Source: the human T2T-CHM13v2.0 reference genome, Homo sapiens. From it: a stretch of DNA of 64,000 nt. The translations under genes and the position numbers were made by a program. The stretch lies in assembly GCF_009914755.1 (NCBI RefSeq), contig NC_060933.1; one strand, 5' to 3'. Below are positions 1 to 64,000 of the stretch, piece after piece. The notes under the pieces were generated by a model. The model did no database searches, was not told where the DNA came from, and saw only the letters and a program-made list of their open reading frames with translations. Numbering within the stretch: the stretch's first letter is position 1; each line of letters begins with the position of its first letter.

Positions 1-236
1 ATGCAATGGAATGGAATCATCCGTAATGGAATGGAAAGGAATGGAATGGAATGGAAGGGAATGGAATGGAATGGAATGGAATCAACTCGATTGCAATCGA
101 ATGGAATGGAATGGAATTAACCTGAATAGAATGGAATGGAATGGAATGGAATGGAACGGAATCAACCCGAGTGCAATGGAATGGAGTGGAATGGAATGGA
201 ATGGAATGGAACAACCCTAATGGAATGGAATGTAAT

Positions 237-278
237 GGAGAGTAAGGGAGTTGAATAGAATCATTCCGAATGTAATGG
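237..278 (+). repeat. Recurrent ~40-bp diverged module GGAG(A/T)GTAAGGGA(G/A)TTGAATAGAATCAATCCGAATGTAATGG (representative copy)
   Basis: Dozens of copies occur in both orientations (e.g. ~2789, 3957, 4132, 7552, 8979, 14349, 29280, 29455; reverse ~31920, 32095, 34477, 63712). Confidence 0.9.
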
Positions 279-779
279 AATGGAATGGAACGGAATGGAA
301 TGGAATGGAATGGAATGGAATGGAATGGAATCAACAAGAGTGCAATCGAATGGAATCGAATGGAATGCAATGCAATGGAATGGATTCAACTTGAATGGAA
401 TGGAAAGAATGGAATCAACACGAGTGGAATGGCATGGATTGGAATGGAATGGAATGGAATCAACCCGAGTACAGGGGAATGGAATGCAATGGAATGCAAT
501 GGAATGGAATCATCCGTAATGGAATGGAAAGGAATGGAATGGAATGGAATGGAATGGAATGGAATGGAATGGAATCAACTCGATTGCAATCGAATGGAAT
601 GGAATGGAATTACCCGAATAGAATGGAAAGGAATGGAATGGAACGGAACGGAATGGAATGGAATGGAGTGGAATGGAATGGAACGGAACGGAACGGAACG
701 GAATGGAATGGAATGGATTGGAATGGAATGGAATCAACGCGAGTGTAGGGGAATGGAATGGAATGGAATGCAATGGAAT

Positions 780-794
780 GGAATCTTCCGGAAT
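780..794 (+). promoter_or_regulatory. Perfect 3-unit heat-shock element match (nGAAnnTTCnnGAAn); first of ~16 copies in the left domain
   Basis: gGAAtcTTCcgGAAt. Other copies start near 4636, 7098, 8865, 9609, 11138, 12406, 14220, 15073 (AC spacer), 18183, 20586, 21963, 24497, 26210, 27034, 29171. The motif match is direct; HSF binding is inferred. Confidence 0.6.
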
Positions 795-3700
795 GGAATG
801 GAATGGAATGGAATGAAATGCAATGGACTCAACTCGATTGCAATGGAATGGAATAGAATGGAATAGAATGGATTGGAATGGAATTAACCCGAATAGAATG
901 GAATGGAATGGAATGGAAAGGAATGGAACGGAAAGGAATGGAATGGAATAGAATGGAATGGAATGGAATGGTATGGAATGGAATGGAATAGTACGGAATG
1001 GAATGGAATGGAATGAATTGTAATGGAATGGAACTGAATGGAATGGAATGGAATGGAATGGAATCAACGCTAGTGCAGGGGAATGTAATGGAAAGGAATG
1101 CAATGGAATGGAATCATCCGGAATGGAATGGAATGGAATGGAATGGAATGCAATGGAATGGATTCAACCCGAGTACAATGGAATGGAATGGAATGGAATG
1201 GAATGGAATGGAATGGAATGCAATGGAATGGAATGGAATGGAATTGAATGGATCGGAATGCCTTCAAACCGAATGGAATGGAAAGGAATGCAATCAACAC
1301 GAGTGGAATGGAATGGAATGGAAAGGAATGGAATGGAATGGAATGGTACGGAATAGAATGGAATGGAACGAAATGGAATGGAATGGAATGGAATAGAATG
1401 GAATCGTTCAGAGTGGAATAGGAGGGAACGTATTCGAGTGGAATGGAAAGGAATGGAATCAACCAGAGTGGAATGGAAGGGAATGGAATGGAATGGAAAC
1501 TAATAGAATGGAATCAACCCGAGTGGAATGGAATGGAAATGACTGGAATGGAATGGAATGGAATGGAATGGAATGGAATGGAATGGAATCAACTCGATTG
1601 TAATGGATTGGAATGGAATGGAATTGAATGCAATAGAATGGAATTAACCCGAATAAAACGGAATGGAATGGAATGGAACGGAATGGAGTGGAATGGAATG
1701 GAATCAACCCGAGTGCAGGGGAATGGAATGGAATGGAATGCAATGGAATGGAATCATCCGGAATGGAATGGAATGGAATGGAATGCAAAGCAATGGAATC
1801 AACTCGATTGCAATGGAATGGAATGGAATGGAAAGGAATACATTGGAATCAACCCGAGTGGAATGGAATGGAAAGGACTGGAATGGAGTGGAATGGAATG
1901 GAATGGAATGGAATGGAATCAACTCGATTGGAATGGAATGGAATGGAATGGAATGGAATGGAATGGAATGGAATGGAATTAACCCGAATAGAATGGAATG
2001 GAATTAAATGGAAAGGAACGGAATGGAATGGAATGGAATGGAATGGAATGGAATCAACCCGACAGAAGGGGAATGGAATGGAATGGAATGCAATGGAATG
2101 GAATCAACCCGAGTACAATGGAATGGAATGGAATGGAATGGAATGGAATGGAATGGAATGGAATTGAATGGATTGGAATGCCTTCAAACCGAATGGAATG
2201 GAAAGGAATGGAATCAACACGAGTGGAATGGAATGGAATGGAAAGGAATGGAATGGAATGGAATGGTACGGAATAGAATGGAATGGAACGAAATGGAATG
2301 GAATGGAATGGAATAGAATGGAATCGTTCAGAGTGGAATAGGAGGGAACGTATTCGAGTGGAATTGAAAGGAATCGAATCAACCAGAGTGGAATGGAAGG
2401 GAATGGAAAGGAATGGAAACTAATAGAATGGAATCAATCCGAGTGGAATGGAATGGAAATGACTGGAATGGAATGGAATGGAATGGAATGGAATGGAATG
2501 GAATGGAATGGAATCAACTCGATTGTAATGGATTGGAATGGAATGGAATTGAATGGAATGGAATGGAATTAACCCGAATAAAAAGGAATGGAATGGAATG
2601 GAACGGAATGGAGTGGAATGGAATGGAATCAACCCGAGTGCAGGGGAATGGAATGGAATGGAATGCAATGGAATGGAATCATCCGGAATGGAATGGAATG
2701 GAATGGAATGCAATCAACCTGATGCAATGGAATGGAGTGGAATGGAATGGAATGGAATGGAAACATCCCGAATGGAATGGAATGTAATGGAGTGTAAGGG
2801 AATTGAATAGAATCAATCCGAATGTAATGGAACGGAATGGAATGAAATGGAATGGAATGGAATGGAATGGAATCAACCCGAGTGCAATGGAATGGATTCG
2901 AATGGAATGGAATGGAATGGAATGGAATCAACTCGATTGGAATGGAATGGAATGGAATGGAATGGAATGGAATGGAATTAACCCGACTGCAGGGGAATGG
3001 AATGGAATGGAATGGAATGGAATGGAATCATCCGGAACGGAATGGACTGGAATGGAATGGAATCAACTCGATTGCAATGGAATGGAATGGAATGGAATTT
3101 AATCGAATGGAATGGAATGGAATTAACCGGAATAGAATGGAATGGAATGGAATGGAACGGAATGGAATGGAATGGAATGGAATGGAATGGAATGGAATGG
3201 AATCAACCCGAGTGCAGGGGAATGGAATGGAATGGAATGCAATGGAATGGAATCATCCGGAATGGAATGGAATGGAATGGAATGCAATCAACCTGATGCA
3301 ATGGAATGGAGTGGAATGGAATGGAATGGAATGGAAAAATCCCGAATGGAATGCAATGTAATGGAGTGTAAGGGAATTGAATAGAATCAATCCGAATGTA
3401 ATGGAATGGAATGGAATGAAATGGAATGGAATGGAATGGAATGGAATCAACCCGAGTGCAATGGAATGGATTCGAATGGAATGGAATGGAATGGAATGGA
3501 TTCAACAAGAATGGAATGGAAAGGAATGGAATCAATCCGAGTGTAATGGCATGGAATGGAACGGAATGGAATGGGATGGAATGGAATGGTATGGAATAGA
3601 ATGGAATAGAATGAAATGGAATGGAATGGAATGGAATGGAATGGAATGGAATGAACCCGTGTGCAATGGAATGGAATGGAATGGAATGGAATGCATTCAA

Positions 3701-6700
3701 CTCGAATGGAATCAACTCGATTGCAATGGAATGGAATGGAATTGAAAGGAATAGAATGGAATCAACACGAGTGGAATGGAATGGAAAGGACTGGAATGGA
3801 GTGGAATGGAATGGAATGGAATTAACACGAATAGAATGAAATGGAACGGAATGGAATGGAATGAAATGGAATGCAATGGAAAGGAATCATCCCGAATGGA
3901 ATGGAATGGAATGGAATGGAATGGAATGGAACAACCCGAATGGAATCGAATGTAATGGAGAGTACGGGAGTTGAATAGAATCAATCCGAATGTAATGGAA
4001 TGGAATGGAACGGAATGGAATTGAATGGAATGGAATGGAATGCAATGGAATGGAATCAACCTGAGTGTAATGGAATGGAGAGGAATGGAATGGAATGGAA
4101 TGGAAACTACCCGAATGGAATGGAATGTAATGGAGTGTAAGGGAATTGAATAGAATCAATCCGAATGGAATGGAGTGGAATGGAACGGAATGGAATGGAA
4201 TGGAATGGAATGGAATGCAATGGAATGGAATCACCCCGAGTGCAATCGAATGGAATCGAATGGAATGGAATGCAATGGAATGGATTCAACTTGAATGGAA
4301 TGGAAAGAATGGAATCAACACGAGTGGAATGGCATGGATTGGAATGGAATGGAATGGAATCAACCCGAGTACAGGGGAATGGAATGGAATGGAATGCAAT
4401 GGAATGGAATCATCCGTAATGGAATGGAAAGGAATGGAATGGAATGGAATGGAATCAACTCGATTGCAATCGAATGGAATGGAATGGAATTAACCCAAAT
4501 AGAATGGAATGGAATGGAATGGAACGGAACGGAATGGAATCGAATGGAATGGAATGGAACGGAACGGAACGGAATGGAATGGAATGGAATGGAATGGAAT
4601 CAACGCGAGTGCAGGGGAATGGAATGCAATGGAATGGAATCTTCCGGAATGGAATGGAATGGAATGGAATGGAAAGAAATGCAATGGATTCAACTCGATT
4701 GCAATGGAATGGAATAGAATGGAATGGAATGGAATGGAATGGAATTAACCCGAATAGAATGGAATGGAATGCAATGGAACGGAATGGAACGGAATGGAAT
4801 GGAAGGGAATGGAATGGAATGGTATGGAATGGAATGGAATGGTACGGAATAGAATGGAATGGAACGAATTGTAATGGAATGGAATTGAATGGAATGGAAT
4901 GGAATCAACGCGAGTGCAGGGGAATGTAATGGAACGAAATGCAATGGAATGGAATCATCCGGAATGGAATGGAATGGAATGGAATGGAATGGAATGGAAT
5001 CAACCCGAGTGCAATGGAATGGAGTGGAATGGAATGGAATGGAATGGAACAACAAGAATGGAATGGAATGTAATGGATAGTAAGGGAGTTGAATAGAATC
5101 AATCTGAATGTAATGGAATGCAACGGAATGGAATGGAATGGAATGGAATGGAATGCAATGGAATGGAATCAACCCGAGTACAATGGAATGGAATGGAATG
5201 GAATGGAATGGAATGGAATGGAATGGAATGGAATGGAATCAATCCGACTGCAGGGGAATGGAATGGAATGGAATGGAATGGAATGGAATGGAATCATCCG
5301 GAACGGAATGGACTGGAATGGAATGGAATCAACTCGATTGCAATGGAATGGAATGGAATGGAATTTAATCGAATGGAATGGAATGGAATTAACCGGAATA
5401 GAATGGAATGGAATGGAATGGAACGGAATGGAATGGAATGGAATGGAATCAACCCGAGTGCAGGGGAATGGAATGGAATGGAATGCAATGGAATGGAATC
5501 ATCCGGAATGGAATGGAATGGAATGGAATGCAATCAACCTGATGCAATGGAATGGAGTGGAATGGAATGGAATGGAATGGAAACATCCCGAATGGAATGG
5601 AATGTAATGGAGTGTAAGGGAATTGAATAGAATCAATCCGAATGTAATGGAATGGAATGGAATGAAAAGGAATGGAATGGAATGGAATGGAATCAACCCG
5701 AGTGCAATGGAATGGATTCGAATGGAATGGAATGGAATGGAATGGAATCAACTCGATTGGAATGGAATGGAATGGAATGGAATGGAATGGAATGGAATTA
5801 ACCCGAATAGAATGGAATGGAATGGAATTGAACGGAATGGAATGGAATGGAATGGAATGGAATGGAATGGAATGGAATCAACCCGACTGCAGGGGAATGG
5901 AATGGAATGGAATGGAATGGAATCATCCGGAACGGAATGGACTGGAAAGGAATGGAATCAAATCGATTGCAATGGAATGGAATGGAATGGAATTTAATCG
6001 AATGGAATGGAATGGAATTAACCGGAATAGAATGGAATGGAATGGAATGGAACGGAATGGAATGGAATGGAATGGAATGGAATGGAATGGAATGGAATCA
6101 TCCCGAGTGCAGGGGAATGGAATGGAATGGAATGCAATGGAATGGAATCATCCGGAATGGAATGGAATGGAATGGAATGCAATCAACCTGATGCAATGGA
6201 ATGGAGTGGAATGGAATGGAATGGAATGGAATGGAAACATCCCGAATGGAATGGAATGTAATGGAGTGTAAGGGAATTGAATAGAATCAATCCGAATGTA
6301 ATGGAATGGAATGGAATGAAATGGAATGGAATGGAATGGAATGGAATCAACCCGAGTGCAATGGAATGGATTCGAATGGAAAGGAATGGAATGGAATGGA
6401 TTCAACAAGAATGGAATGGAAGGGAATGGAATCAACCCGAGTGTAATGGCATGGAATGGAACGGAATGGAATGGAATGTAATGGAATGGTATGGAATAGA
6501 ATGGAATAGAATGAAATGGAATGGAATGGAATGGAATGGAATGGAATGGAATGGAATGGAATGAACCCGTGTGCAATGGAATGGAATGGAATGGAATGGA
6601 ATGGATTCAACTCGAATGGAATCAACTCGATTGCAATGGAATGGAATGGAATTGAAAGGAATAGAATGGAATCAACACGAGTGGAATGGAATGGAAAGGA

Positions 6701-7795
6701 CTGGAATGGAGTGGAATGGAATGGAATGGAATTAACACGAATAGAATGAAATGGAACGGAATGGAATGGAATGTAATGGAATGCAATGGAAAGGAATCAT
6801 CCGGAATGGAATTGAATGGAATGGAATGGAATGGAATGGAATGGAATCAACTCGATTTCAATGGAATGGAATGGAATAGAATGGAATGGAATTAACACGA
6901 ATAGAATGGAATGGAATGGAATTGAATGGAACAGAAAGGAATGGAATGGAATGGAATGGAATCAACCCAAGTGCAGGGGAATGGAAAAGAATGGAATTCA
7001 ATGGAATGGAATCATCCGGAATGGAATGGAATAGAATGGAATGGAATGGAATCAACGCGAGTGCAGGGGAATGGAATGGAATGGAATGCAATGGAATGGA
7101 ATCTTCCGGAATGGAATGGAATGGAATGGAATGGAATGAAATGCAATGGATTCAACTCGATTGCAATGGAATGGAATAGAATGGAATGGAATGGAATGGA
7201 ATGGAATTAATTCGAATAGAATGGAATGGAATGGAATGGAACGGAATGGAACGGAATGGAATGGAATGGAATGGAATGGAATGGTATGGAATGGAATGGA
7301 ATGGTACGGAATAGAATGGAATGGAACGAATTGTAATGGAATGGAATTGAATGGAATGGAATGGAATGGAATGGAATGGAATGGAATCAACGCGAGTGCA
7401 GGGGAATGTAATGGAACGGAAGGCAATGGAATGGAATCATCCAGAACGGAATGGAATGGAATGGAATGGAATGGAATCAACCCGAGTGCAATGGAATGGT
7501 GTGGAATGGAATGGAATGGAATGGAACAACCCGAATGGAATGGAATGTAATGGAGAGTAAGGGAGTTGAATAGAATCAATCCGAATGTAATGGAATGGAA
7601 AGCAACGGAATGGAATGGAACGGAATGGAATGGAATGGAATGGAATGCAATGGAATTGAATCAACCCGAGTACAATGGAATGGAATGGAACGGAATGGAA
7701 TGGAATGGAATGGAATGGAATGAAATGATACGGAATAGAATGGAATGGAACGAAATGAATGGAATGGAATGGAATGGAATGGAATGGAATGGAAT

Positions 7796-7837
7796 GGAAT
7801 CGTTCCGAGTGGAATAGGAGGGAATGTATTCGAGTGG
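7796..7837 (+). repeat. Recurrent module GGAATCGTTCCGAGTGGAATAGGAGGGAATGTATTCGAGTGG (representative copy)
   Basis: Copies near 1400, 2320, 7796, 10358, 12691, 15757, 18632, 22228, 25182, 27798; reverse near 29820, 31000, 38556, 44950, 49685, 54283, 55533, 57136, 57965, 59632, 61006, 62732, 63386. In G-strand orientation they are followed by CAACCAGAGT...GGAAACTAATAG. Confidence 0.9.
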
Positions 7838-10800
7838 AATGGAAAGGAATGGAATCAGCCAGAGTGGAATGGAAGGGAATGGAATGGAATGGAAACTAAT
7901 AGAATGGAATCAACCCGAGAGGAATGGAATGGAAAGGACTGGAATGGAATGGAGTGGAATGGAATCAACTCGATTGTAATGGAATGGAATGGAATGGAAT
8001 GGAATGGAATGGAATGGAATTAACCTGAATACAATGCAATGGAATGGAATGGAACGGAATGGAGTGGAATGGAATGGAATCTACCCGAGTGCAGGGGAAT
8101 GGAATGGAATGGAATGCAATGGAATGGAATCATCCGGAATGGAATGGAATGGAATGGAATGCAAAGCAATGGAATCAACTCGATTGCAATGGAATGGAAT
8201 GGAATGGAAAGGAATACATTGGGATCAACCCGAGTGGAATGGAATGGAAAGGACTGGAATGGAGTGGAATGCAATGGAATGGAATGGAATGGAATCAACT
8301 CGATTGGAATAGAATGGAATGGAATGGAATGGAATGGAATTAACCCGAATAGAATGGAATGGAATGGAATGGAACGGAATGGAATGGAATGGAATGGATT
8401 GGAATGGAATGGAATGGAAACAACCCGACTGCAGGGGAATGGAGTGGAATGGAATGCAATGGAATGGATTCAACTTGAATGGAATGGAAAGAATGGAATC
8501 AACACGAGTGGAATGGCAGGAATTGGAATGGAATGGAATGGAATCAACCCGAGTACAGGGCAATGGAATGGAATGGAATGCAATGGAATGGAATCATCCG
8601 TAATGGAATGGAAAGGAATGGAATGGAATGGAATGGAATGGAATGGAATGGAATCAACTCGATTGCAATCGAATGGAATGGAATGGAATTAACCCGAATA
8701 GAATGGAATGGAATGGAATGGAACGGAACGGAACGGAACGGAACGGAATGGAATGGAATGGAATGGAATGGAACGGAAAGGAATGGAATGGAATGGAATG
8801 GAAAGGAATAGAATGGAATCAACGCGAGTGCAGGGGAAAGGAATGGAATGGAATGCAATGGAATGGAATCTTCCGGAATGGAATGGAATGGAATGGAATG
8901 GAATAAACCCGAGTGCAATGGAATGGAGTGGAATGGAATGGAATGGAATGGAACAACCCGAATGGAATGGAATGTAATGGAGAGTAAGGGAGTTGAATAG
9001 AATCAATCCGAATGTAATGGAATGGAATGGAACGGAATGGAATTGAATGGAATGGAATGGAATGCAATGCAATGGAATCAACCCGAGTGCAATGGAATGG
9101 AGAGGAATGGAATGGAATGGAGTGGAAACTACCCGAATGGAATGAAATGCAATGGAATGGAATCAACCCGAGTGCAATGGAATGGAGAGAAATGGAATGG
9201 AATGGAGTGGAAACTACCCGAATGGAATGGAATCTAATGGAGTGTAAGGGAATTGAATAGAATCAATCCGAATGTAATGGAAAGGAATGGAACGGAATGG
9301 AATGGAATGGAATGGAATGGAATGGAATGGAATGGAAAGGAATGCAAAGGAATGGAATCAACCCGAGTGCAATCGAATGGAATCGAATGGAATGAAATGC
9401 AATGGAATGGAATCAACTCGATTGCAATCGAATGGAATGGAATGGAATTAACCCGAATAGAATGGAATGGAATGGAATGGAAAGGAACGGAATGGAATGG
9501 AATGGAATGGAATGGAATGGAATGGAACGGAACGGAATGGAATGGAATGGAATGGAATGGAATCAACGCGAGTGCAGGGGAATGGAATGGAATGGAATGC
9601 AATGGAATGGAATCTTCCGGAATGGAATGGAATGGAATGGAATGGAATGAAATGCAATGGATTCAACCCGATTGCAATGGAATGGAATAGAATGGAATGG
9701 AATGGAACGGAATGGAATGAACCCGAATAGAATGGAATGGAATGTAATGGAACGGAATGGAACGGAATGGAATGGAATGGAATGGAATGCAATGGTATGG
9801 AATGGAATGGAATGGTACGGAATAGAATGGAATGTAACGAATTGTAATGGAATGGAATTGAATGGAATGGAATGGAATCAACGCGAATGCAGGGGAATGT
9901 AATGGAACGGAATGCAATGGAATGGAATCATCCGGAATGGAATGGAATGGAATGGAATGGAATGGAATGGAATGGAATGGAATCAACCCGAGTGCAATGG
10001 AATGGAGTGGAATGGAATGGAATGGAATGGAACAACCCGAATGGAATGGAATGTAATGGAATGTAAGGGAGTTGAATAGAATCAATCCGAATGTAATGGA
10101 ATGGAATGCAACGGAATGGAATGGAATGGAATGCAATGGAATGCAATCAACACGAGTACAATGTAATGTAATGGAATGGAATGGAATGGAATGGAATGGA
10201 ATGGAATGGAATGGAATGCCTTCAAACCGAATGGAATGGAAAGGAATGGAATCAACACGAGTGGAATGGAATGGAATGGAATGGAATGGAATGGAATGGA
10301 ATGATACGGAATAGAATGGAATGGAACGAAATGGAATGGAATGGAATGGAATGGAATGGAATCGTTCCGAGTGGAATAGGAGGGAATGTATTCGAGTGGA
10401 ATGGAAAGGAATGGAATCAACCAGAGTGGAATGGAAGGGAATGGAATGGAATGGAAACTAATAGAATGGAATCAACCCGATTGGAATGCAATGGAAAGGA
10501 CTGGAATGGAATGGAATGGAATGGAATCAACTCCATTGTAATGGAATGGAATGGAATGGAATGGAATGGAATGGAATGGAATTAACCCGAATACAATGGA
10601 ATGGAATGGAAAGGAAGGGAATGGAGTGGAATGGAATGGAATCAACCCGAGTGCAGGGGAATGGAATGGAATGGAATGCAATGGAATGGAATCATCCAGA
10701 ATGGAATGGAATGGAATGGAATGCAAAGCAATGGAATCAACTCGATTGCAATGGAATGGAAGGGAATGGAAAGGAATACATTGGAATCAACCCGAGTGGA

Positions 10801-13800
10801 ATGGAATGGATAGGACTAGAATGGAGTGGAATGGAATGGAATGGAATGGAAAGGAATGCAATGGAATGGAATCAACCCGAGTGCAATCGAATGGAATCGA
10901 ATGGAATGAAATGCAATGGAATGGAATCAACTCGATTGCAATCGAATGGAATGGAATGGAATTAACCCGAATAGAATGGAATGGAATGGAATGGAACGGA
11001 ACGGAATGGAATGGAATGGAATGGAATGGAATGGAACGGAAAGGAACGGAATGGAATGGAATGGAATGGAATGGAATGGAATGGAATGGAATCAACGCGA
11101 GTGCAGGGGAATGGAATGGAATGGAATGCAATGGAATGGAATCTTCCGGAATGGAATGGAATGGAATGGAATGGAATGAAATGCAATGGATTCAACTCGA
11201 TTGCAATGGAATGGAATAGAATGGAATGGAATGGAATGGAATGGAATTAACCCGAATAGAATGGAATGGAATGGAACGGAATGGAACGGAATGGAACGGA
11301 ATGGAATGGAATGGAATGGAATGGAATGGAATGGAATGGAATGGTATGGAATGGAATAGAATGGTACGGAATAGAATGGAATGGAACGAATTGTAATGGA
11401 ATGGAATTGAATGGAATGGAATGGAATGGAATGGAATCAACGCGAGTGCAGGGGAATGTAATGGAACGGAGTGCAATGGAATGGAATCATCCGGAATGGA
11501 ATGGAATGGAATGGAATGGAATGGAATGGAATGGATTGCAAAGGAATGGAATCAACCCGAGTGGAATGGCATGGAATGGAATGCAATGGAATGGAATGGA
11601 ATGGAATCAACTCGAGTGGAAAGGAATGGAATGGAATGGAAAGGAATGGAATGAAGTCAACTCGAGTGGAATGGAATGGAATGGAATGGATTGGAATGGA
11701 TTGCAATGGAATATAATGGAATGGAATGGAATGGAATCAATCATTCCGAGTGGAATGGAAGGGAATGTAATGGAGTGGAAAGAAGGGAATGGAATCAACC
11801 CGAGTGGAATGCAAGGCAATGGAATGGATTGGAAAGGAATGGAATGGAATCAACTCGATTGCAATGGAATGGAATGGAATGGAATGGAATGGAATGGAAT
11901 GGAATGGAATTAACCGGAATAGAATGGAATGGAATGGAATGGAACGGAATGGAATGGAATGGAAGGGAATGGAATCAACACGAGTGCAGGGGAGTGGAAT
12001 GGAATGGAATGCAATGGAATGGAATCATCCGGAATGGAATGGAATGGAATGGAATCAACTCCATTGCAATGGAATGGAATGGAATGGAATGGAATAGAAT
12101 GGAATGGAATTAACCCGAATAGAATGGAATGCAATAGAATGGAATGCAACGGAACCGAATGGAGTGAAATGGAATGGAATGGAATCAACCCGAGTACAGG
12201 GGAATGGAATGGAATGGAATGCAATGGAATGGAGTCATCCGTAATGGAATGGAAAGGAATGGAATGGAATGGAATGGAATGGAACGGAACGGAATGGAAT
12301 GGAACGGAATGGAATGGAATGGAGCGGAACGGAATGGAATGGAATGGAATGGAATGGAATCAACGCGAGTGCAGGGGAATGGAATGGAATGGAATGCAAT
12401 CGAATGGAATCTTCCGGAATGGAATGCAATGGAACGGAATGGAATGAAAGGCAATGGATTCAACTCGATTGCAATGGAATGGAATAGAATGGAATGGAAT
12501 GGAATGGAATGGAATGGAATTGAATGGAATGGAATACTTTCAAACCGAATGGAATGGAAAGGAATGGAATCAACACGAGTGGAAAGGAATGGAATGGAAA
12601 GGAATGGAATGGAATGGAATGGTACGGAATAGAATGGAATGGAACGAACTGGAATGGAATGGAATGGAATGGAATGGAATGGAATGGAATGGAATCGTGC
12701 CGAGTGGAATAGGATGGAATGTATTCGAGTGGAATGGAAAGGAATGGAATCAACCAGAGTGGAATGGAAGGGAATGGAATGGAATGGAATCTAATAGAAT
12801 GGAATCAACCCGAGTGGAATGGAATGGAAAGGACTGGAATGGAATGGAATGGAATGGAATGGAATGGAATCAACTCGATTGTAATGGAATGGAATGGAAC
12901 GGAATGGAATGGAATGGAATTAACCCGAATACAATGGAATGGAATGGAATGGAACGGAATGGAGTGGAATGGAATGGAATCAACCCGAGTGCAGGGGAAT
13001 GGAATGGAATGGAATGCAATGGAATGGAATCATCCGGAATGGAATAGAATGGAATGGAATGCAAAGCAATGGAATCAACTCGATTGCAATGGAATGGAAT
13101 GGAATGGAAAGGAATAGAATGGAATCAACCCGAGTGTAATGGAATGGAAAGGACTGGAATGGAGTGGAATGGAATGGAATGGAAAGGAATGGAATCAACT
13201 CGATTGTAATGGAATGGAATGGAATGGAATGGAATTAACCGGAATAGAATGGAATGGAATGGAATGGAAAGGAACGGAATGGAATGGAATGGAATGGAAT
13301 GGAATGGAATCAACCCGACTGCAGGGGAATGGAATGGAATGGAATGGAATGGAATGGAATGGAATCATCCGGAACGGAATGGAATGGAATGGAATGGAAT
13401 CAACTCGATTGCAATGGAATGCAATGGAATGGAATGGAATCGAATGGAATGGAGTGGAATTAACAGGAATAGAATGGAATGGAATGGAATTGAACGGAAT
13501 GAAATGGAAGGGAATGGAATGGAATGGAATGGAATCAACCCGAGTGCAGGGGAATGGAATGGAGTGGAATGCAATGGAATGGAATCAACCCGAGTGCAAT
13601 GGAATGGAGAGGAATGGAATGGAATGGAATGGAAACTACCCGAATGGAATGGAATGTAATGGAGTGTAAGGGAATTGAATAGAATCAATCCGAATGTAAT
13701 GGAATGGAATATAACGGAATGGAATGGAATGGAGTGGAATGGAATGGAATGGAATGGAATGCAATGGAATGGAATCAACCCGAGTGCAATCGAATGGAAT

Positions 13801-28800: not shown

Positions 28801-29545
28801 TGGATTCAACTTGAATGGAATGGAAAGAATGGAATCAACACGAGTGGAATGGCATGGATTGGAATGGAATGGAATGGAATCAACCCGAGTACAGGGGAAT
28901 GGAATGGAATGGAATGCAATGGAATGGAATCATCCGTAATGGAAAGGAAAGAAATGGAATGGAATGGAATGGAATGGAATGGAATGGAATCAACTCGATT
29001 GCAATCGAATGGAATGGAATGGAATTAACCCGAATAGAATGGAATGGAATGGAATGGAACGGAACGGAACGGAATGGAATGGAATGGAATGGAATGGAAT
29101 GGAACGGAAAGGAATGGAATGGAATGGAATGGAATCAACGCGCGTGCAGGGGAATGGAATGTAATGGAATGGAATCTTCCGGAATGGAATGGAATGGAAT
29201 GGAATCAACCCGAGTGCAATGGAATGGAGTGGAATGGAATGGAATGGAATGGAACAACCTGAATGGAATCGAATGTAATGGAGAGTAAGGGAGTTGAATA
29301 GAATCAATCCGAATGTAATGGAATGGAATGGAACGGAATGGAATTGAATGGAATGGAATGGAATGCAATGGAATGGAATCAACCCGAGTGCAATGGAATG
29401 GAGAGGAGGGGAATGGAATGGAGTGGAAACTACCCGAATGGAATGGAATGTAATGGAGTGTAAGGGAATTGAATAGAATCAATCCGAATGTAATGGAATG
29501 GAATGGAACGGAATGGAATGGAATGGAATGGAATGGAAAGAAGGG

Positions 29546-29573
29546 AATGGAATCAACCCGAGTTGATTCCATT
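29546..29573. other. Intra-satellite inversion breakpoint; hairpin with 12-bp stem and 4-nt loop; CGAGT microhomology
   Basis: AATGGAATCAAC (29546-29557), CCGA, GTTGATTCCATT (29562-29573): the arms are exact reverse complements. CGAGT (29559-29563) is shared by the + module CAACCCGAGTG and the - module AATCGAGTTGATT. Confidence 0.95.
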
Positions 29574-34300: not shown

Positions 34301-34839
34301 CTTCCACTCGTGTTGATTCCATTCTTTCCATTCCATTCAAGTTGAATCCATTCCATTGCATTCCATTCAATTCGATTCCATTCGATTGCACTCGGGTTGA
34401 ATCCATTCCATTGCATTCCATTCCATCCCATTCCATTCCATTGCATTCCATTCCGTTCCATTCCATTCCATTACATTCGGATTGATTCTATTCAATTCCC
34501 TTACACTCCATTACATTCCATTCCATTCGGGTAGTTTCCATTCCATTCCATTCCATTCCTCTCCATTCCATTGCACTCGGGTTGATTCCATTCCATTGCA
34601 TTCCATTCCATTCCATTCAATTCCATTCCGTTCCATTCCATTCCATTCCATTCGGATTGATTCTATTCAACTCCCTTACTCTCCATTACATTCCATTCCA
34701 TTCGGGTTGTTCCATACCATTCCATTCCATTCCACTCCATTCCATTGCACTCGGGTTTATTCCATTCCATTCCATTCCATTCCATTCCATTCCATTCCGG
34801 AAGATTCCATTCCATTGCATTCCATTCCATTCCATTCCA

Positions 34840-37800: not shown

Positions 37801-37870
37801 CCATTCCATTCCATTGCATTCCATTCCGTTCCATTCCATTCCATTACATTCGGATTGATTCTATTCAATT
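34840..37870 (-). repeat. ~3-kb block duplicated at ~40150-43150 (offset ~5.3 kb)
   Basis: Shared rare markers: CATTACCTTCTATTCC (~34863/40171), GATTGATTATATTCC (~35086/40395), TTCTAATTGATTCTATTCATCTCCCTTAGTCTCC (~36486/41799), CTTTCTGTTCC (~37233/42535). Near-identical ORF translations at offsets 5302-5313. Confidence 0.88.
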
Positions 37871-37879
37871 CCCTTACAC

Positions 37880-54900: not shown

Positions 54901-57900
54901 TTCCGTTCCGGATGATTCCATTCCATTGCATTCCATTCCATTCCATTCCCCTGCAGTCGGGTTGATTCCTTTCCATTCCATTCCATTCCATTCCATTCTA
55001 TTCCATTCCGTTCCATTCCATTCCATTCCATTCTATTCGGGTTAATTCCATTGCATTCCATTCCATTCCATTCCAATCGAGTTACTTCCATTCCATTCCA
55101 TTCCATTCCACTCCATTCCAGTCCTTTCCATTCCATTCCACTCGGGTTGATTCCATTCTATTCCTTTCCATTCCATTCCATTGCAATCGAGTTGATTCCA
55201 TTGCATTGCATTCCATTCCATTCCATTCCATTCCGGATGATTCCATTCCATTGCATTCCATTCCATTCCATTCCCCTGCACTCGGGTTGATTCCATTCCA
55301 TTCCACTCCATTCCGTTCCATTCCATTCCATTCCATTGTATTCGGGTTAATTCCATTCCATTCCATTCCTTTCCATTCCATTACAATCGAGTTGATTCCA
55401 TTCCATTCCATTCCATTCCATTCCATTCCATTCCTTTCCATTCCATTCCACTCGGGTTGATTCCATTCTATTAGTTTCCATTCCATTCCATTCCCTTCCA
55501 TTCCACTCTGGTTGATTCCATTCCTTTCCATTCCACTCGTATGCATTCCGTCCTATTCCACTCGGAACAATTCCATTCCATTCCATTCCATTCCATTCCA
55601 TTCCATTCCATTCCATTCCACTCGTGTTGATTCCATTCCTTTCCATTCCATTCGGTTTGAAGCCATTCCATTCCATTCAATTCCATTCCATTCCATTCCG
55701 TTCCATTCCATTTCATTCCATTGTACTCGGGTTGATTCCATTCCATTGCATTCCATTCCATTCCATTCAATTCCATTCCGTTCCATTCCATTCCATTACA
55801 TTCGGATTGATTCTATTCAACTCCCTTACTCTCAATTACATTCCATTCCATTCGGATTGATTCTATTCAACTCTCTTACTCTCCATTACATTACATTCCA
55901 TTCGGGTTGTTCCATTCCATTCCATTCCATTCCACTCCATTCCATTGCACTCGGGTTGATTCCATTCCATTCCATTCCATTCCATTCCATTCCATTCCAT
56001 TCCATTCCGGATGATTCCATTCCATTGCATTCCGTTCCATTACATTCCCCTGCACTCGGGTTGATTCCATTCCATTCCATTCCATTCCATTCGTTTCCAT
56101 TCCATTCCAATTCTTTCCTTTCCATTCTATTCCGTACCATTCCATTCCATTCCATACAAATCCATTCCATTCCATTCCATTCCTTTCCGTTCCGTTCCGT
56201 TCCGTTCCGTTCCATTCCATTCCATTCCATTCTATTCGGGTTAATTCCATTTCATTCCATTCCATTCCATTCTATTGCATTCCATTGCAATCGAGTTGAA
56301 TCCATTGCATTCCATTCCATTCCATTCCATTCCATTCCGGAAGATTCCATTCCATTGCAATCTATTCCATTCCATTCCCCTGCACTCGCGTTGATTCCAT
56401 TCCATTTCATTCCATTCCATTCCATTACATTCGGATAGATTCTATTCAATTCCCTTATTCTCCATTACATTCCATTCCATTCGGGATGTTTCCATTCCAT
56501 TCCATTCCATTCCACTCCATTCCATTGCATCAGGTTGATTGCATTCCATTCCATTCCATTCCGTTCCGGATGATTCCATTCCATTGCATTCCATTCCATT
56601 CCATTCCCCTGCAGTCGGGTTGATTCCATTCCATTGCATTCCATTCCATTCCATTCCATTCCATTCTTTTCCATTCCATTCCATTCCATTCTATTCGGGT
56701 TAATTCCAATCCATTCCATTCCATTCCATTCCAATCGACTTGATTCCATTCCATTCCATTCCATTCCATTCCACTCTATTCCAGTCCTTTCCATTCCATT
56801 CCACTCGGGTTGATTCCATTCTATTCCTTTCCATTCCATTCCATTCCATTGCAATCGAGTTGATTCCATTTCTTTGTATTCCGTTCCATTCCATTCCATT
56901 CCATTATATTCGGGTTAATTCCATTGCATTCCATTCCATTCCATTCCATTCCATTCCATTCCATTCCATTCCATTCCATTCCATTACACTGGAGTTGATT
57001 CCATTCCATTCCATTCCATTCCATTCCATTCCAGTCCTTTCCATTCCATTCCACTCGGGTTGATTCCATTCTACTAGTTTCCATTCCATTCCATTCCCTT
57101 CCATTCCACTCTGGTTGATTCCATTCCTTTCCATTCCACTCGAATACATTCCCTCCTATTCCACTCGGAACGATTCCATTCCATTCCATTCCATTCCATT
57201 CCATTCCATTCCATTCCATTCCGTTCCGTTCCATTCCATTCCATTCGATTTAATTTCGTTCCATTCCATTCTATTCCGTACCATTCCATTCCAATCAATT
57301 CCATTCCATTCCATTCCATTCCATTTCGTTCCATTCCATTCTATTCCGTACCATTCCATTCCATTCCATTCCATTCCATTCCATTCCATTCCACTCCATT
57401 CCATTCCATTCCATTCCATTCCATTCCACTCGTGTTGATTCCATTCCTTTCCATTCCATTCAGTTTGAAAGCATTCCATTCCATTCCATTCCATTCCATT
57501 CTATTCCATTCTATTCCATTCCATTGTACTCGGGTTGATTCCATTCCATTGCATTCCATTCCATTCCATTCCATTCCATTCCATTCCATTCCGTTCCATT
57601 CCATTCCATTACATTCGGATTGATTCTTTTCAACTCCCTTACTCTCCATTACATTCCATTCCATTCGGGTTGTTCCATTCCATTCCATTCCATTCGACTC
57701 CATTCCATTGCACTCGGGTTGATTCCACTCCATTCCATTCCATTCCATTCCGGATGATTCCATTCCATTGCATTCCGTTCCATTCCATTCCCCTGCACTC
57801 GGGTTGATTCCATTCCATTCCATTCCATTCCATTCCATTCCATTCCATTCGTTTCCATTCCAGTCTTTTCCATTCCATTCCACTCGGGTTGATTCCATTC

Positions 57901-60900
57901 TATTAGTTTCCATTCCATTCCATTCCCTTCCATTCCACTCTGGTTGATTCCATTCCTTTCCATTCCACTCGAATACATTCCCTGCTATTCCACTCGGAAC
58001 GGTTCCATTCCATTCCATTCCATTCCATTCCATTCCATTTCGTTCCATTCCATTCTGTTCCGTATCATTCCATTCCATTCCATTCCATTCCATTCCATTC
58101 CATTCCATTCCACTCGTGTTGATTCCATTCCTTTCCATTCCATTCGGTTTGAAGGCATTCCATTCCATTCCATTCCATTCCTTTCCATTCCATTCCATTG
58201 TACTCGGGTTGATTCCATTCCATTGCATTCCATTCCATGCCATTCCATTCCATTCCATTCCATTCCATTCCGTTCCATTCCATTCCATTACATTCGGGTT
58301 GATTCTATTCAACTCCCTTACTCTCCATTACATTCCATTCCATTCGGGTTGTTCCATTCCATTCCATTCCATTCCACTCCATTCCATTGCACTCGGGTTG
58401 ATTCCATTCCATTCCATTCCATTCCATTCCATTCCGGATGATTCCATTCCATTGCATTCCGTTCCATTCCATTCCCCTGCACTCGCGTTGATTCCATTCC
58501 ATTCCATTCCATTCCATTCAATTCCATTCCATTACAATTCGTTCCATTCCATTCTATTCCGTACCATTCCATTCCATTCCATAACATTCCATTCCATTCC
58601 ATTCCATTCCATTCCATTCCATTCCGTTCCATTCCGTTCCATTCCTTTCCATTCCATTCTATTCGGGTTAATTCCATTCCATTCCATTCCATTCCATTCC
58701 ATTCCATTCCATTCCATTCCATTCTATTCCATTCCATTGCAATCGAGTTGAATCAATTGCATTTCATTCCATTCCATTCCATTCCATTCCATTCCGGAAG
58801 ATTCCATTCCATTGCATTCCATTCCATTCCATTCCCCTGCACTCGCGTTGATTCCATTCCATTCCATTCCATTCCATTCCATCCATTCCATTCCGTTTCG
58901 TTCCATTCCATTCCATTCCATTCCGTTCCGTTCCATTCCATTCCATTCCATTCTATTCGGGTTAATTCCATTCCATTCCATTCGATTGCAATCGAGTTGA
59001 TTCCATTCCATTCCACTCCATTCCATTCCATTCCATTCCATTCCTTTCCATTCCATTACGGATGATTCCATTCCATTGCATTCCATTCCATACCATTCCC
59101 CTGTACTCGGGTTGATTCCATTCCATTCCATTCCAATCCATGCCATTCCACTCGTGTTGATTCCATTCTTTCCATTCCATTCAAGTTGAATCCATTCCAT
59201 TGCATTCCATTCCATTCCATTCCCCTGCAGTCGGGTTGTTTCCATTCCATTCCATTCCATTCCATTCCGTTCCGTTCCATTCCATTCCATTCCATTACAT
59301 TCTATTCGGGTTAATTCCATTCCATTCCATTCCATTCCATTCCATTCCATTCCATTCCAATCGAGTTGATTCCATTCCATTCCATTCCATTCCATTCCAT
59401 TCCATTCCACTCCATTCCAGTCCTTTCCATTCCATTCCACTCGGGTTGATTCCAATGTATTCCATTCCATTCCATTCCATTCCATTCCATTACAATCGAG
59501 TTGATTCCATTCCATTCCATTCCATTCCAGTCCTTTCCATTCCATTCCTCTCGGGTTGATTCCATTCTATTAGTTTCCATTCCATTCCATTCCCTTCCAT
59601 TCCACTCTGGTTGATTCCATTCCTTTCCATTCCACTCGAATACATTCCCTCCTATTCCACTCGGAACGATTCCATTCCATTCCATTCCATTCCATTCCAT
59701 TCCATTCCATTCCATTCCATTGTACTCGGGTTGATTCAATTCCATTGCATTCCATTCCATTCCATTCCATTCCATTCCATTCCGTTGCATTCCATTCCAT
59801 TACATTCGGATTGATTCTATTCAACTACCTTACTCTCCATTACATTCCATTCCATTCGGGTTGTTCCATTCCATTCCATTCCATTCCACTCCATTCCATT
59901 GCACTCGGGTTGATTCCATTCCATTCCATTCCATTCCATTCCATTCCATTCCATTCCGGATGATTCCATTCCATTGCATTCCGTTCCATTACATTCCCCT
60001 GCACTCGCGTTGATTCCATTCCATTCCATTCAATTCCATTCCATTACAATTCGTTCCATTCCATTCTATTCCGTACCATTCCATTCCATTCCATACCATT
60101 CCATTCCATTCCATTCCATTCCATTCCGTTCCATTCCGTTCCATTCCATTCCATTCCATTCTCTTCGAATTAATTCCATTCCATTCCATTCCATTCCATT
60201 CTATTCCATTCCATTGCAATCGAGTTGAATCCATTGCATTTCATTCCATTCCATTCCATTCCATTCCATTCCGGAAGATTCCATTCCATTGCATTCCATT
60301 CCATTCCATTCCCCTGCACTCGCGTTGATTCCATTCCATTCCATTCCATTCCATTCCATTCCATTCCGTTCCGTTCCGTTCCGTTCCATTCCATTCCATT
60401 CCATTCCGTTCCGTTCCGTTCCATTCCATTCCATTCCATTCTATTCCGGTTAATTCCATTCCATTCCATTCGATTGCAGTCGAGTTGATTCCATTCCATT
60501 CCATTCCATTCCATTCCATTCCATTCCATTCCATTCCAATCGAGTTGATTCCATTCCATTCCATTCCATTCCATTCCATTCGACTCCATTCCAGTCCTTT
60601 CCATTCCATTCCACTCGGGTTGATTCCAATTTATTCCTTTCCATTCCAGTCCATTCCATTGCAATCGAGTTGATTCCATTGCTTTGCATTCCATTCCATT
60701 CCATTCCATTCCGGATGAGTCCTTTCCATTGCATTGCATTCCATTCCATTCCCCTGCACTCGGGTTGATTCCATTCCATTCCACTCCATTCCGTTCCATT
60801 CCATTCCATTCCATTGTATTCGGGTTAATTCCATTCCATTCCATTCCATTCCATTCCATTCCATTACAATCGAGTTGATTCCATTCCATTCCATTCCATT

Positions 60901-63900
60901 CCAGTCCTTTCCATTCCATTCCACTCGGGTTGATTCCATTCTATTAGTTTCCATTCCATTCCATTCCCTTCCATTCCACTCTGGTTGATACCATTCCTTT
61001 CCATTCCACTCGAATACATTCCCTCGTATTCCACTCGGAACGATTCCATTCCATTCCATTCCATTCCATTCCATTCCATTCCATTCCATTTCGTTCCATT
61101 CCATTCTATTCCGTATCATTCCATTCCATTCCATTCGATTCCATTCCATTCCATTCCATTCCATTCCATTCCATTCCATTGTACTCAGGTTGATTCAATT
61201 CCATTGCATTCCATTCCATTCCATTCCATTCCATTCCATTCCGTTGCATTCCATTCCATTACATTCGGATTGATTCTATTCACCTCCCTTACTCTCCATT
61301 ACATTCCATTCCATTCGGGTTGTTCCATGCCATTCCATTCCATTCCACTCCATTCCATTGCACTCGGGTTGTTCCATTCCATTCCATTCCATTCCATTCC
61401 ATTCCATTCCGGATGATTCCATTCCATTGCATTCCGTTCCATTACATTCCCCTGCACTCGCTTTGATTCCATTCCATTCCATTCCATTCCATTCAATTCC
61501 ATTCCATTACAATTCGTTCCATTCTATTCTATTCCGTACCATTCCATTCCATTCCATGCCATTCCATTCCTTTCCATTCCATTCCATTCCGTTCCATTCC
61601 GTTCCATTCCATTCCATTCCATTCTATTCGGATTAATTCCATTCCATTCCATTCCATTCCATTCCATTCTATTCCATTCCATTGCAATCGAGTTGAATCC
61701 ATTGCATTTCATTCCATTCCATTCCATTCCATTCCATTCCGGAAGTTTCCATTCCATTGCATTCCATTCCATTCCATTCCCCTGCACTCGCGTTGATTCC
61801 ATTCCATTCCATTCCATTCCGTTCCGTTCCATTCCATTCCATTCCATTCCGTTCCGTTCCATTCCATTCCATTCCATTCTATTCGGGTTAATTCCATTCC
61901 ATTCCGTTCGATTGCAATCGAGTTGATTCCATTCCATTCCATTCCATTCCATTCCATTCCATTCCATTCCATTCCTTTCCATTCCATTACGGATGATTCC
62001 ATTCCATTGCATTCCATTCCATTCCATTCCCCTGTACTCGGGTTTATTCCATTCCATTCCATTCCAATCCATGCCATTCCACTCGTGTTGATTCCATTCT
62101 TTCCATTCCATTCAAGTTGAATCCATTCCATTGCATTCCATTCAATTTGATTCCATTCGATTGCACTCGGGTTGATTCCATTCCATTGCATTCCATTCCA
62201 TTCCATTCCATTCCATTCCATTCCATTCCATTCCGTTCCATTCCATTCCATTACATTCGGATTGATTCTATTCAATTCCCTTACACTGCATTACATTCCA
62301 TTCCATTCGGGTAGTTTCCATTCCATTCCATTCCATTCCCCTCCATTCCATTGCACTCGGGTTGATTCCATTCCATTGCATTCCATTCCATTCCATTCAA
62401 TTCCATTCCGTTCCATTCAATTCCATTACATTCGGATTGATTCTATTCAACTCCCTTACTCTCCATTCCATTCCATTCCATTCGGGTTGTTCCATTCCAT
62501 TCCATTCCATTCCACTCCATTCCATTGCACTCGGGTTGATTCCATTCCATTCCATTCCATTCCATTCCATTCCATTCCATTCCATTCCATTACAATCGAG
62601 TTGATTCCTTTCCATTCCATTCCATTCCAGTCCTTTCCATTCCATTCCACTCGTGTTGATTCCATTCTATTAGTTTCCATTCCATTCCATTCCCTTCCAT
62701 TCCACTCTGGTTGATTCCATTCCTTTCCATTCCACTCGAATACATTCCCTCCTATTCCACTTGGAACGATTCCATTCCATTCCATTCCATTCCATTCCAT
62801 TCCATTCCATTCCATTTCGTTCCATTCCATTTTATTCCGTATGATTCCATTCCATTCCATTCCATTCAATTCCATTCCATTCCATTCCATTGTACTCGGG
62901 TTGATTCCATTCCATTCCATTCCATTCCATTCCATTCCATTCCATTCCATTCCGTTCCATTCCATTACATTCGGATTGATTCTTTTCAACTCCCTTACTC
63001 TCCATTACATTCCATTCCATTCGGATTGTTCCATTCCATTCCATTCCATTCCACTCCATTCCATTGCACTCGGGTTGATTCCATTCCATTCCATTGCATT
63101 CCATTCCGGATGATTCCATTCCATTGCATTCTGTTCCATTACATTCCCCTGCAATCGGGTTGATTCCATTCCATTCCATTCCATTCCATTCGATTCCATT
63201 CCATTCCCCTGAACTCGCGTTGATTCCATTCCATTCCATTCCATTCCATTCCATTCCATTCCATTCCATTCCTTTCCATTCCAGTCCTTTCCATTCCATT
63301 CCACTCGCGTTGATTCCATTCTATTAGTTTCCATTCCATTCCATTCCCTTCCATTCCACTCTGGTTGATTCCATTCCTTTCCATTCCACTCGAATACATT
63401 CCCTCCTGTTCCACTCGGAACGATTCCATTCCATTCCATTCCATTCCATTCCATTCCATTCCATTCCATTTCGTTCCATTCCATTCTATTCCGTATCATT
63501 CCATTCCATTCCTTTCCATTCCATTCCACTCGTGTTGATTTCATTCCTTTCCATTCCATTCGGTTTGAAGGCATTCCATTCCATTCCATTCCATTCGATT
63601 CCATTCCATTCCAGTCCATTCCATACCATTGTACTCGGGTTGATTCCATTCCATTGCATTCCATTCCATTCCATTCCATTCCATTCCGTTGCATTCCATT
63701 CCATTACATTCGGATTGATTCTATTCAACTCCCTTACTCTCCATTACATTCCATTCCATTCGGGTTGTTCCATTCCATTCCATTCCATTCCACTCCATTC
63801 CATTGCACTCGGATTCATTCCATTCCATTCCATTCCATTCCGGATGATTCCATTCCATTGCATTCCGTTCCATTACATTCCCCTGCACTCGGGTTGATTC

Positions 63901-64000
63901 CATTCCATTCCATTCCTTTCCATTCGATTCCATTCCATTCCAATTCTTTCCATTCCATTCTATTCCGTACCATTCCATTCCATTCCATACAATTCCATTC

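What the first reader, a model, noticed from the sequence alone, without database searches (positions are those of the whole stretch)
1..64000. Window-scale imperfect inverted repeat with a 4-nt loop: convergent G-strand transcription, fold-back dsRNA or cruciform potential
Seen: a 12-bp perfect stem closes a CCGA loop. After a few mismatches and a 1-nt bulge, the pentamer pairing resumes (GGAATGGAA at 29530-29538 against TTCCGTTCC at 29582-29590) and can continue for tens of kb on each side. The G-rich strands of both arms point toward the junction. Established: heat stress induces HSF1-dependent, mainly G-rich SatIII lncRNAs that scaffold nuclear stress bodies. Inference: Pol II from both arms would converge here. 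A read-through transcript would switch from GGAAU to AUUCC and fold into a long dsRNA hairpin (potential ADAR, Dicer, PKR or MDA5 substrate). This could explain C-rich SatIII RNA without an antisense promoter. In DNA, a near-spacerless inverted repeat is a candidate cruciform or fragile site.
Basis: partly seen in the sequence, partly recalled or inferred. Interest (0 to 1): 0.72.

Follow-up and report, generated by a model that had tools for sequence, protein, structure and literature searches.

The report
Cloned inversion junction in chromosome-9 satellite
This is a point where human chromosome 9 satellite DNA flips direction, and the same junction occurs 53 times along the array, so the array's 200-plus known flips are likely copies of about five old breaks rather than separate events; a hairpin-RNA or cruciform role is untested and looks like a by-product.

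Summary
The strand switch and the 12-bp stem with CCGA loop are real. The window is HSat3B5 of chr9, and the switch is one of the known inversion breakpoints of that array. It is not a window-scale fold-back: mirror-position identity of the arms is 80.2% against 80.6% for random arm pairs. A stem of 12 bp or more with a loop of 4 nt or less arises at 14% of simulated joints.

What the searched papers do not state: this junction (J1) occurs 53 times, all at chr9:51.1-75.7 Mb, in both orientations, about 1% diverged. Five junction families hold 201 of the 212 strand switches I located; at least 231 are implied. J1 likely arose once, across a 5-bp overlap in the satellite's terminator motif, and was spread by block duplication and by flipping through homologous arms.

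A read-through RNA would fold, but no better than any G/C pair. Free read-through over-predicts measured C-rich RNA about 100-fold. No RNA or nuclease data were tested.

The parts
1..29557 (+). Left arm: HSat3B5 satellite, G-rich strand on +. It extends about 190 kb upstream to a K2 junction at chr9:54,089,862 if no undetected pair of switches lies between.
   Evidence: 16 of 42 HSat3B5 marker 24-mers, all on -; no switch in 30 kb upstream of the window; block length
29562..64000 (-). Right arm: the same satellite inverted, G-rich strand on -. It extends about 186 kb to a K2 junction at chr9:54,465,398 under the same proviso. Not a mirror copy of the left arm.
   Evidence: 26 of 42 marker 24-mers, all on +
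28660..30459 (.). Junction core shared by the J1 copies: 0.4-1.4% substitutions out to 900 bp on the left and 300 bp on the right, rising to 1.9% and 3.4% at 300-600 and 600-900 bp on the right as flanks are exchanged
   Evidence: 14 other copies aligned to the window copy
29546..29557 (+). 5' side of the 12-bp stem; an ordinary satellite word (pentamer run plus the start of a terminator)
   Evidence: 215 and 220 copies in the two arms
29554..29563 (+). Complete SatIII terminator decamer CAACCCGAGT of the left parent unit
   Evidence: sequence; motif named in PMC2241877 section 11; the same subunit continues into this decamer elsewhere in the arms
29558..29561 (.). CCGA loop, with a CpG at 29559-29560; 2 of 53 copies show C>T at this CpG
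29559..29563 (.). 5-bp overlap CGAGT shared by the left parent and the inverted right parent: the likely microhomology at the break
   Evidence: parents identified by context; P(>=5 bp) = 0.0015 for a fixed pair of sites but 0.25 under a permissive any-parent measure
29562..29573 (-). 3' side of the 12-bp stem; the inverted start of a second terminator-type motif of the right parent unit

Best explanation
The window holds one copy of an inversion junction in the chromosome 9 HSat3B5 satellite that occurs 53 times in the array, and it likely arose once, by a join across a 5-bp overlap between two opposed terminator motifs, and was likely spread by duplication of satellite blocks and flipped by recombination between inverted arms. 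Steps. (1) Shown: the switch, the 53 near-identical copies on chr9 only, both orientations, non-mirror arms. (2) Inferred: a break or template switch joined a G-strand unit to an inverted, unrelated unit where the two strands share CGAGT; since both terminators are preceded by the same word, the 12-bp stem and 4-nt loop follow automatically. (3) Shown as pattern, inferred as process: G>C and C>G junctions alternate and recur with the same spacing and order in 9.5-kb, 52-kb, 8.8-Mb and 10.6-Mb duplications, so junctions multiply in pairs as the array grows. (4) Inferred: exchange between homologous inverted arms reverses whole segments, which changes the orientation of the junctions inside and swaps flanks beyond about 1 kb without making a new junction. 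(5) Inferred: the hairpin has no selected role; fold-back RNA or a cruciform would be a by-product shared by every switch in the array.
For: 53 matches of a 32-nt junction pattern (38 exact, 14 with one mismatch, 1 with two; 34 +, 19 -), all chr9:51.07-75.68 Mb, reversed-pattern control 0. All 40 scored candidates of 885 for the 161-nt junction are chr9 copies at 95-100%. 14 fetched copies differ from the window copy by 0.4-1.2% within 300 bp, with variants shared by subsets; the copy at 63.08 Mb shows 0 substitutions over 1.8 kb. Census: G>C J1 53, J3 30, J2 22, other 9; C>G K2 85, K1 11, K3 2. Before adding K3, 188 of 209 neighbours alternate in type (shuffles: mean 104, maximum 134 of 10,000). 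Runs of 33 and 32 junction labels repeat in direct order and a run of 9 in inverted order. All five large families occur in both orientations. Outside the second copies of the two megabase duplications J1 still has 31 copies. The model predicts switch number to scale with array length; r = 0.90 is reported (10.64898/2026.07.22.740206 section 6).
Against: The microhomology step is not secure: under a permissive measure 25% of simulated blunt joints show 5 bp or more, and J2 and K3 show only 2 bp. Only 15 of 53 J1 copies were aligned, and the first 8 were picked as best matches. At least 19 switches (17 C>G, 2 G>C) remain unlocated, and 11 located ones fall outside the five families. One wide-window comparison made the stem look more conserved than its flanks (0.9% vs 3.3%, P = 1e-7); I discount it as misalignment of pentamer runs, since pairwise alignments give about 1% there. 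One haplotype only; no other human or ape assembly was available.
Confidence: 0.82

Rival explanations
1. Functional element: Pol II from both arms converges here, read-through RNA folds into long dsRNA that feeds ADAR, Dicer, PKR or MDA5 and explains C-rich SatIII RNA, or the DNA extrudes a cruciform; the junction is kept and amplified for this.
For: Convergent geometry. Predicted read-through fold of -704 kcal/mol per 1,200 nt with helices of 37 and 30 bp. 42 of 53 copies keep the exact 28-nt hairpin. At least 114 G>C junctions exist. HSat3 is enriched in single-strand footprints, though the authors ascribe this to a G-zipper of the pentamer itself (10.1101/2025.11.03.686349 passages). C-rich RNA rises in parallel with G-rich RNA (PMC2241877 section 18).
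Against: Flanks pair no better than random arm pairs (239 of 300 at least as stable). Seven copies carry 4 distinct stem changes whose partner base is visibly unchanged; 3 more changes have their partner outside the listed rows. Stem rate 0.9% equals flank rate 0.4-1.2%. J2 and J3, the other G>C families, have only 7- and 8-bp stems. Free read-through over-predicts C-rich RNA about 100-fold. Inverted-repeat and cruciform motifs are negatively correlated with single-strand footprints genome-wide. No Rfam match in 28500-30600.
Confidence: 0.08
2. Recurrent hotspot: the terminator motif breaks again and again, and each of the 53 sites is an independent inversion that lands on the same bases.
For: J1 and J3 both break in the terminator that follows the same subunit marker, and a chr17 switch at 21,960,997 also sits in a terminator variant. 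CGAGT/ACTCG is among the commonest 5-mers that the two strands share (6.8% of shared weight).
Against: Copies share rare variant words on both sides and about 99% identity for hundreds of bases, whereas random arm pairs are about 80% alike. The right parent context was found only twice in 173 kb of array, so repeated choice of the same pair is very unlikely. The motif may still be a favoured site for the few founder events.
Confidence: 0.04
3. Fold-back duplication (breakage-fusion-bridge or hairpin-capped break), or a fold-back read or assembly artefact, giving a true palindrome centred on the loop.
For: Near-spacerless 12-bp stem.
Against: Arms are not mirror copies. 53 copies carry lineage-specific variants. 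Hundreds of chr9 switches are reported across independent assemblies, and 1,738 older sequencing reads already matched both HSat2,3 strands (PMC4022460 passage).
Confidence: 0.02

Closest known systems
Inversion breakpoints (strand switches) of the chr9 HSat3B5 array (Altemose et al., 10.1101/2021.07.12.452052; 10.64898/2026.07.22.740206; 10.64898/2026.09.03.749043)
   Same: Same array, same kind of feature, similar number: 'over 200' for chr9 HSat3B5 and beta satellites, hundreds per assembly, about 129 per haplotype; at least 231 implied here.
   Different: The passages I read count the switches and call them randomly placed, stochastic by-products of expansion. They do not say that the junction sequences are copies of a few founders (201 of 212 located switches in five families).
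SatIII repeat (GGAAT)n CAAC(C/A)CGAGT and its stress-induced G-rich RNA (PMC2241877)
   Same: The arms have this structure, and the break lies inside the terminator decamer.
   Different: That work treats the array as one polarity and ascribes C-rich RNA to chromatin opening; junction read-through is not considered in the sections read, and is untested here.
Microhomology-mediated end joining or template switching (recalled, no call)
   Same: A short overlap (5 bp) between two parents, with no inserted bases.
   Different: The pathway cannot be told from sequence, and the statistical support depends on the null used.
Fold-back inversions and true palindromes such as the chrY palindromes (recalled, no call)
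   Same: Head-to-head orientation with a short spacer.
   Different: Those have arms of near-identical mirror sequence; here mirror identity equals array background.

Membership tests
HSat3 / SatIII | (GGAAT)n runs broken by a CAAC(C/A)CGAGT terminator | tested here: met
   about 110 pentamers per kb; CAACCCGAGT 88 and 104 times, CAACACGAGT 26 and 28 times in the two arms; formula from PMC2241877
HSat3B5 subfamily | Subfamily marker 24-mer of PMC4022460 present, markers of sister subfamilies absent | tested here: met
   B5 marker 42 matches (shuffles 0); B3 and B4 markers 0 each; 3 of the markers shown were tested
chr9 HSat3B5 inversion breakpoints | Switch of satellite strand inside the chr9 array | tested here: met
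   place chr9:54,279,558-61
chr9 HSat3B5 inversion breakpoints | Listed at this coordinate in the published strand tables | not testable with these tools
   Tables S6-S7 of the bioRxiv preprint and Supplementary Table 8 of 10.64898/2026.07.22.740206 were not seen
Fold-back inversion / true palindrome | Arms are mirror copies about the centre, above background identity | tested here: not met
   80.2% vs 80.6 +/- 1.6%; no k-mer peak at offset 0
Microhomology-mediated junction | Overlap between both parents longer than chance | tested here: inconclusive
   5 bp with context-identified parents; P = 0.0015 strict, 0.25 permissive
Conserved structured RNA / selected hairpin | Stem conserved above flanks, with compensatory changes, or an Rfam match | tested here: not met
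   stem 0.9% vs flanks 0.4-1.2%; 4 distinct stem changes with unchanged partner; Rfam 0
dsRNA substrate of ADAR, Dicer, PKR or MDA5 | A junction-spanning transcript exists and forms long duplex in cells | not testable with these tools
   only a predicted fold: 2 of 59 helices reach 30 bp; the 30-bp PKR threshold is recalled
Cruciform / fragile site | Extrusion under supercoiling and nuclease sensitivity at the loop | not testable with these tools
   predicted single-strand DNA fold only; K1 and K2 have longer stems

The most novel reading that the evidence does not exclude
The 27-Mb chr9 satellite is a mosaic built by amplifying five founder inversion junctions, and those junctions drive the process: stress transcription converging on the 114 or more G>C junctions stalls or reads through, yields fold-back dsRNA that strand-specific RT-PCR cannot see, and seeds the breaks that duplicate and flip junction-bounded blocks.
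Probability: 0.13. Interest if true: 0.82.

Novelty: new member of a known kind. Interest (0 to 1): 0.48.

Why it matters
Strand switches in the chr9 array are known and unexplained. If about 95% of the located ones descend from five junctions, the array did not suffer 200-plus illegitimate inversions; it suffered a handful, and ordinary homologous exchange did the rest. That explains why switch number tracks array length. It also gives practical handles in a region where reads cannot be mapped: one 32-nt word marks 53 convergent junctions and matches nowhere else in the genome. The order and orientation of five such words give a barcode of the array that exposes 8.8-Mb and 10.6-Mb internal duplications. 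The same words make the old question of where C-rich SatIII RNA comes from testable in existing RNA data, with a number to test against (1.8-4.5% of transcripts if read-through is free).

Tried and rejected
Mirror or fold-back reading: rejected. Shuffle z-scores: set aside because any G-arm plus C-arm pair beats shuffles; replaced by random arm pairs. Stem under selection: one search suggested it (3.3% in flanks), one search showed that figure came from misaligned pentamer runs. Microhomology at all six junction families (2-6 bp): not claimed, since the matched null gives 4 bp or more in 33-37% of random joints. The anchor search for the left parent was uninformative (318 pentamer-run matches); one search used a subunit marker instead. 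The 'K2 L021' row hit a non-junction site and was ignored; the L029 row was used. Generic C>G patterns listed only their first 100 rows and found no switch at chr9:48.7-52.3 Mb, where alternation needs one. K3 turned out to have only 2 copies, so 17 C>G gaps stay open. Rows dropped before the census: 2 K2 matches on chr11 and chr14, the chr7, chr10, chr14 and chr17 sites and chr9:48,706,334. A whole-arm blastn timed out. No single repeat period stood out in the arms. No dating was attempted: satellite mutation and conversion rates are too uncertain. Rfam: nothing. The Science version of the centromere paper and the 2022 satellite review were not held.

Full report
Observation. The window is satellite from end to end, with one strand switch. 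GGAAT dominates the + strand up to 29.5 kb and ATTCC after it, and GC skew flips from about +0.6 to -0.6. A perfect 12-bp stem (29546-29557 with 29562-29573) closes CCGA, the longest perfect hairpin in the window with a loop of 12 nt or less. The G-rich strands converge. The satellite is HSat3B5: the subfamily marker from PMC4022460 (passages) matches 42 times, 16 on - left of the switch and 26 on + right of it, while the B3 and B4 markers match 0 times.

Not a window-scale fold-back. Ungapped pairing fails right after the stem. Shared 50-mers between the arms number 0 at mirror offset 0, and the longest exact inverted match anywhere is 250 bp, far off the mirror diagonal. Mirror-register identity is 80.2% over 19 blocks of 1.5 kb, against 80.6 +/- 1.6% for 40 random arm pairs. 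The arms are complementary only because both are the same satellite. The hairpin itself is cheap: its stem word occurs 215 and 220 times in the arms, and 14% of 20,000 simulated G>C joints give a stem of 12 bp or more with a loop of 4 nt or less.

Anatomy of the break. The switch lies in the terminator decamer CAACCCGAGT (29554-29563), the motif that separates pentamer runs in SatIII (PMC2241877 section 11). The left unit follows a subunit marker that leads into this decamer elsewhere in the arms. The right unit matches a context found twice in 173 kb of array, where it continues into a different terminator-type motif. The two parents overlap by CGAGT at 29559-29563 with no inserted bases. For a fixed pair of sites an overlap of 5 bp or more has P = 0.0015. 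Under a permissive measure that accepts any parent in the library it has P = 0.25. I take microhomology as likely for J1 and unproven for the other junctions. Because both terminators are preceded by the same word, a join there yields the stem and loop with no further cause.

The junction is a clone. The 161-nt junction matched 40 of 40 scored candidates (of 885) on chr9 at 95-100%. The exact 28-nt hairpin occurs 42 times. A 32-nt pattern with up to 3 mismatches finds 53 sites, 34 on + and 19 on -, all at chr9:51.07-75.68 Mb, with 0 for the reversed control. I call this family J1. Fourteen of the other 52 copies were fetched, the first 8 chosen as best matches. They differ from the window copy by 0.4-1.2% within 300 bp, and some fall to array background beyond about 0.5-1 kb. 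The copy at 63.08 Mb has no substitution over 1.8 kb.

Census of the array. G>C and C>G switches must alternate, so gaps show what is missing. Fetching short gaps revealed K1 and K2, J2, J3 and K3. Counts on chr9: J1 53, J3 30, J2 22, 9 other G>C sites; K2 85 (two off-chromosome rows dropped), K1 11, K3 2. Without K3, 188 of 209 neighbours alternate, against a shuffle mean of 104 and maximum of 134. With K3, 212 switches are located, 201 of them in five families, and at least 19 more are implied (17 C>G, 2 G>C): at least 231 in all. Median block length is 77 kb, range 1.1-733 kb. The window's two blocks are about 190 and 186 kb, checked directly only for 30 kb beyond each end.

How the copies spread. 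Runs of 33 and 32 junction labels repeat in direct order (54.6-60.2 to 65.2-70.9 Mb; 52.1-54.6 to 61.0-63.4 Mb), and a run of 9 repeats in inverted order. Smaller tandem duplications carry a junction pair with it, such as K2-J1 spaced 12,683 bp twice, 51.6 kb apart. These do not account for all copies: 31 J1 sites lie outside the second copies of the two large duplications. Every large family occurs in both orientations. The simplest account, inferred, is a few founder joins, then duplication of blocks holding junction pairs, and inversion by exchange between homologous opposed arms, which flips junctions and swaps flanks without making new ones.

A read-through RNA would fold: -704 kcal/mol for 1,200 nt, 82% paired, 2 of 59 helices at 30 bp or more. 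But 239 of 300 random G-arm/C-arm pairs hybridise at least as well as the real flanks. K1 (24-bp stem, 5-nt loop) and K2 (14 bp, 8 nt) are better hairpins than J1, and J2 and J3 are worse. Among 53 copies, 9 carry 10 stem substitutions; 7 copies show 4 distinct changes with the partner base unchanged, and for 3 changes the partner is outside the listed rows. The stem rate of 0.9% equals the flank rate. A wider comparison made the stem look conserved (3.3% in flanks, P = 1e-7); one search points to misaligned pentamer runs as the cause. With 116 G>C junctions in 25.5 Mb, transcripts of 2-5 kb (PMC6309819 passage) and even initiation, 1.8-4.5% of transcripts would cross a junction and 0.9-2.3% of nucleotides would be C-rich. 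PMC2241877 reports G-rich induction of 1-2 x 10^4 and C-rich RNA in stressed cells below the unstressed G-rich level. Free read-through therefore over-predicts by about 100-fold, unless the hairpin blocks primer binding, which is possible. For the cruciform, 10.1101/2025.11.03.686349 (passages) finds HSat3 rich in single-strand footprints, ascribes that to a pentamer G-zipper, and finds cruciform motifs negatively correlated with signal. Rfam has no match. No RNA, chromatin or nuclease data were tested here.

What is known. 10.1101/2021.07.12.452052 (passages; section 8) reports over 200 inversion breakpoints for chr9 HSat3B5 and the beta satellites. 10.64898/2026.07.22.740206 (passages and section 6) finds hundreds of switches in CEN09 HSat3, r = 0.90 with array length, and calls them random by-products of expansion. 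10.64898/2026.09.03.749043 (passages; word search of 3 supplementary files) gives about 129 switches per haplotype. 10.64898/2026.07.13.738322 (passages) added nothing on this array's switches. None of the text I saw says the junctions are copies of a few founders. Searches behind that; for junction RNA. The limit is real: the preprints' supplements, the Science version and the 2022 review were not seen and may say it. Statements on end joining, fold-back inversions and PKR length are recalled.

Verdict. A real inversion breakpoint of a known kind, in a known array. The window-scale inverted repeat and the special hairpin are not supported; dsRNA or cruciform formation is possible, untested and not specific to this site. 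The value lies in the clonal structure, which is well supported in this one haplotype and gives unique words for testing read-through. Interest 0.48.

Noticed in passing
G000:C9, junction order 52.13-54.58 Mb vs 61.04-63.39 Mb and 54.61-60.21 Mb vs 65.18-70.85 Mb: Two megabase-scale direct duplications inside the array (offsets about 8.8 and 10.6 Mb), read from runs of 32 and 33 junction labels; a run of 9 labels recurs inverted (64.99-65.89 vs 71.57-72.44 Mb).
   Followed up: partly
L010:5429-5456 (chr9:53,795,433): K1, a C>G junction in 11 copies, has a 24-bp perfect stem and a 5-nt loop: a better cruciform candidate than the window's junction.
   Followed up: partly
L021:2261-2295 (chr9:61,082,273): K2 is the commonest junction, 85 copies, most of the 98 located C>G switches.
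   Followed up: partly
L035:3643-3687 (chr9:57,614,465): K3, 2 copies: a C>G junction with terminator motifs placed symmetrically, giving a stem of about 17 bp around a 5-nt loop.
   Followed up: partly
L030:3381-3432 (chr9:52,957,868) and window 29554-29563: J3 and J1 break in the terminator that follows the same subunit marker, 2 to 4 bases apart; chance, shared descent or a favoured site. The single junction at chr9:75,367,557 shares J3's right side only.
   Followed up: no
G000:C7:58.72-59.04 Mb: The chr7 array has its own strand switches, some in mirror pairs (58,757,542 and 58,995,521; 58,725,953 and 59,037,544), which suggests a large inverted duplication.
   Followed up: no
G000:C17:21,960,997-21,961,033: A G>C switch on chr17 also lies in a terminator variant, independent of J1.
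   Followed up: no
G000:C9:51.07-52.13 Mb and 16 other intervals: Alternation needs C>G switches that no pattern found; they may have long or non-satellite spacers.
   Followed up: no
window 37420-45710: Local tandem duplications in the right arm at offsets of about 5.3 and 6.4 kb, with exact runs up to 419 bp.
   Followed up: no
L029:1-9581 (chr9:70,853,880-70,863,460): The shortest block in the census (1,133 bp, K2 to J2) lies in a 9.5-kb tandem duplication absent from the paralogous copy near 60.2 Mb.
   Followed up: no
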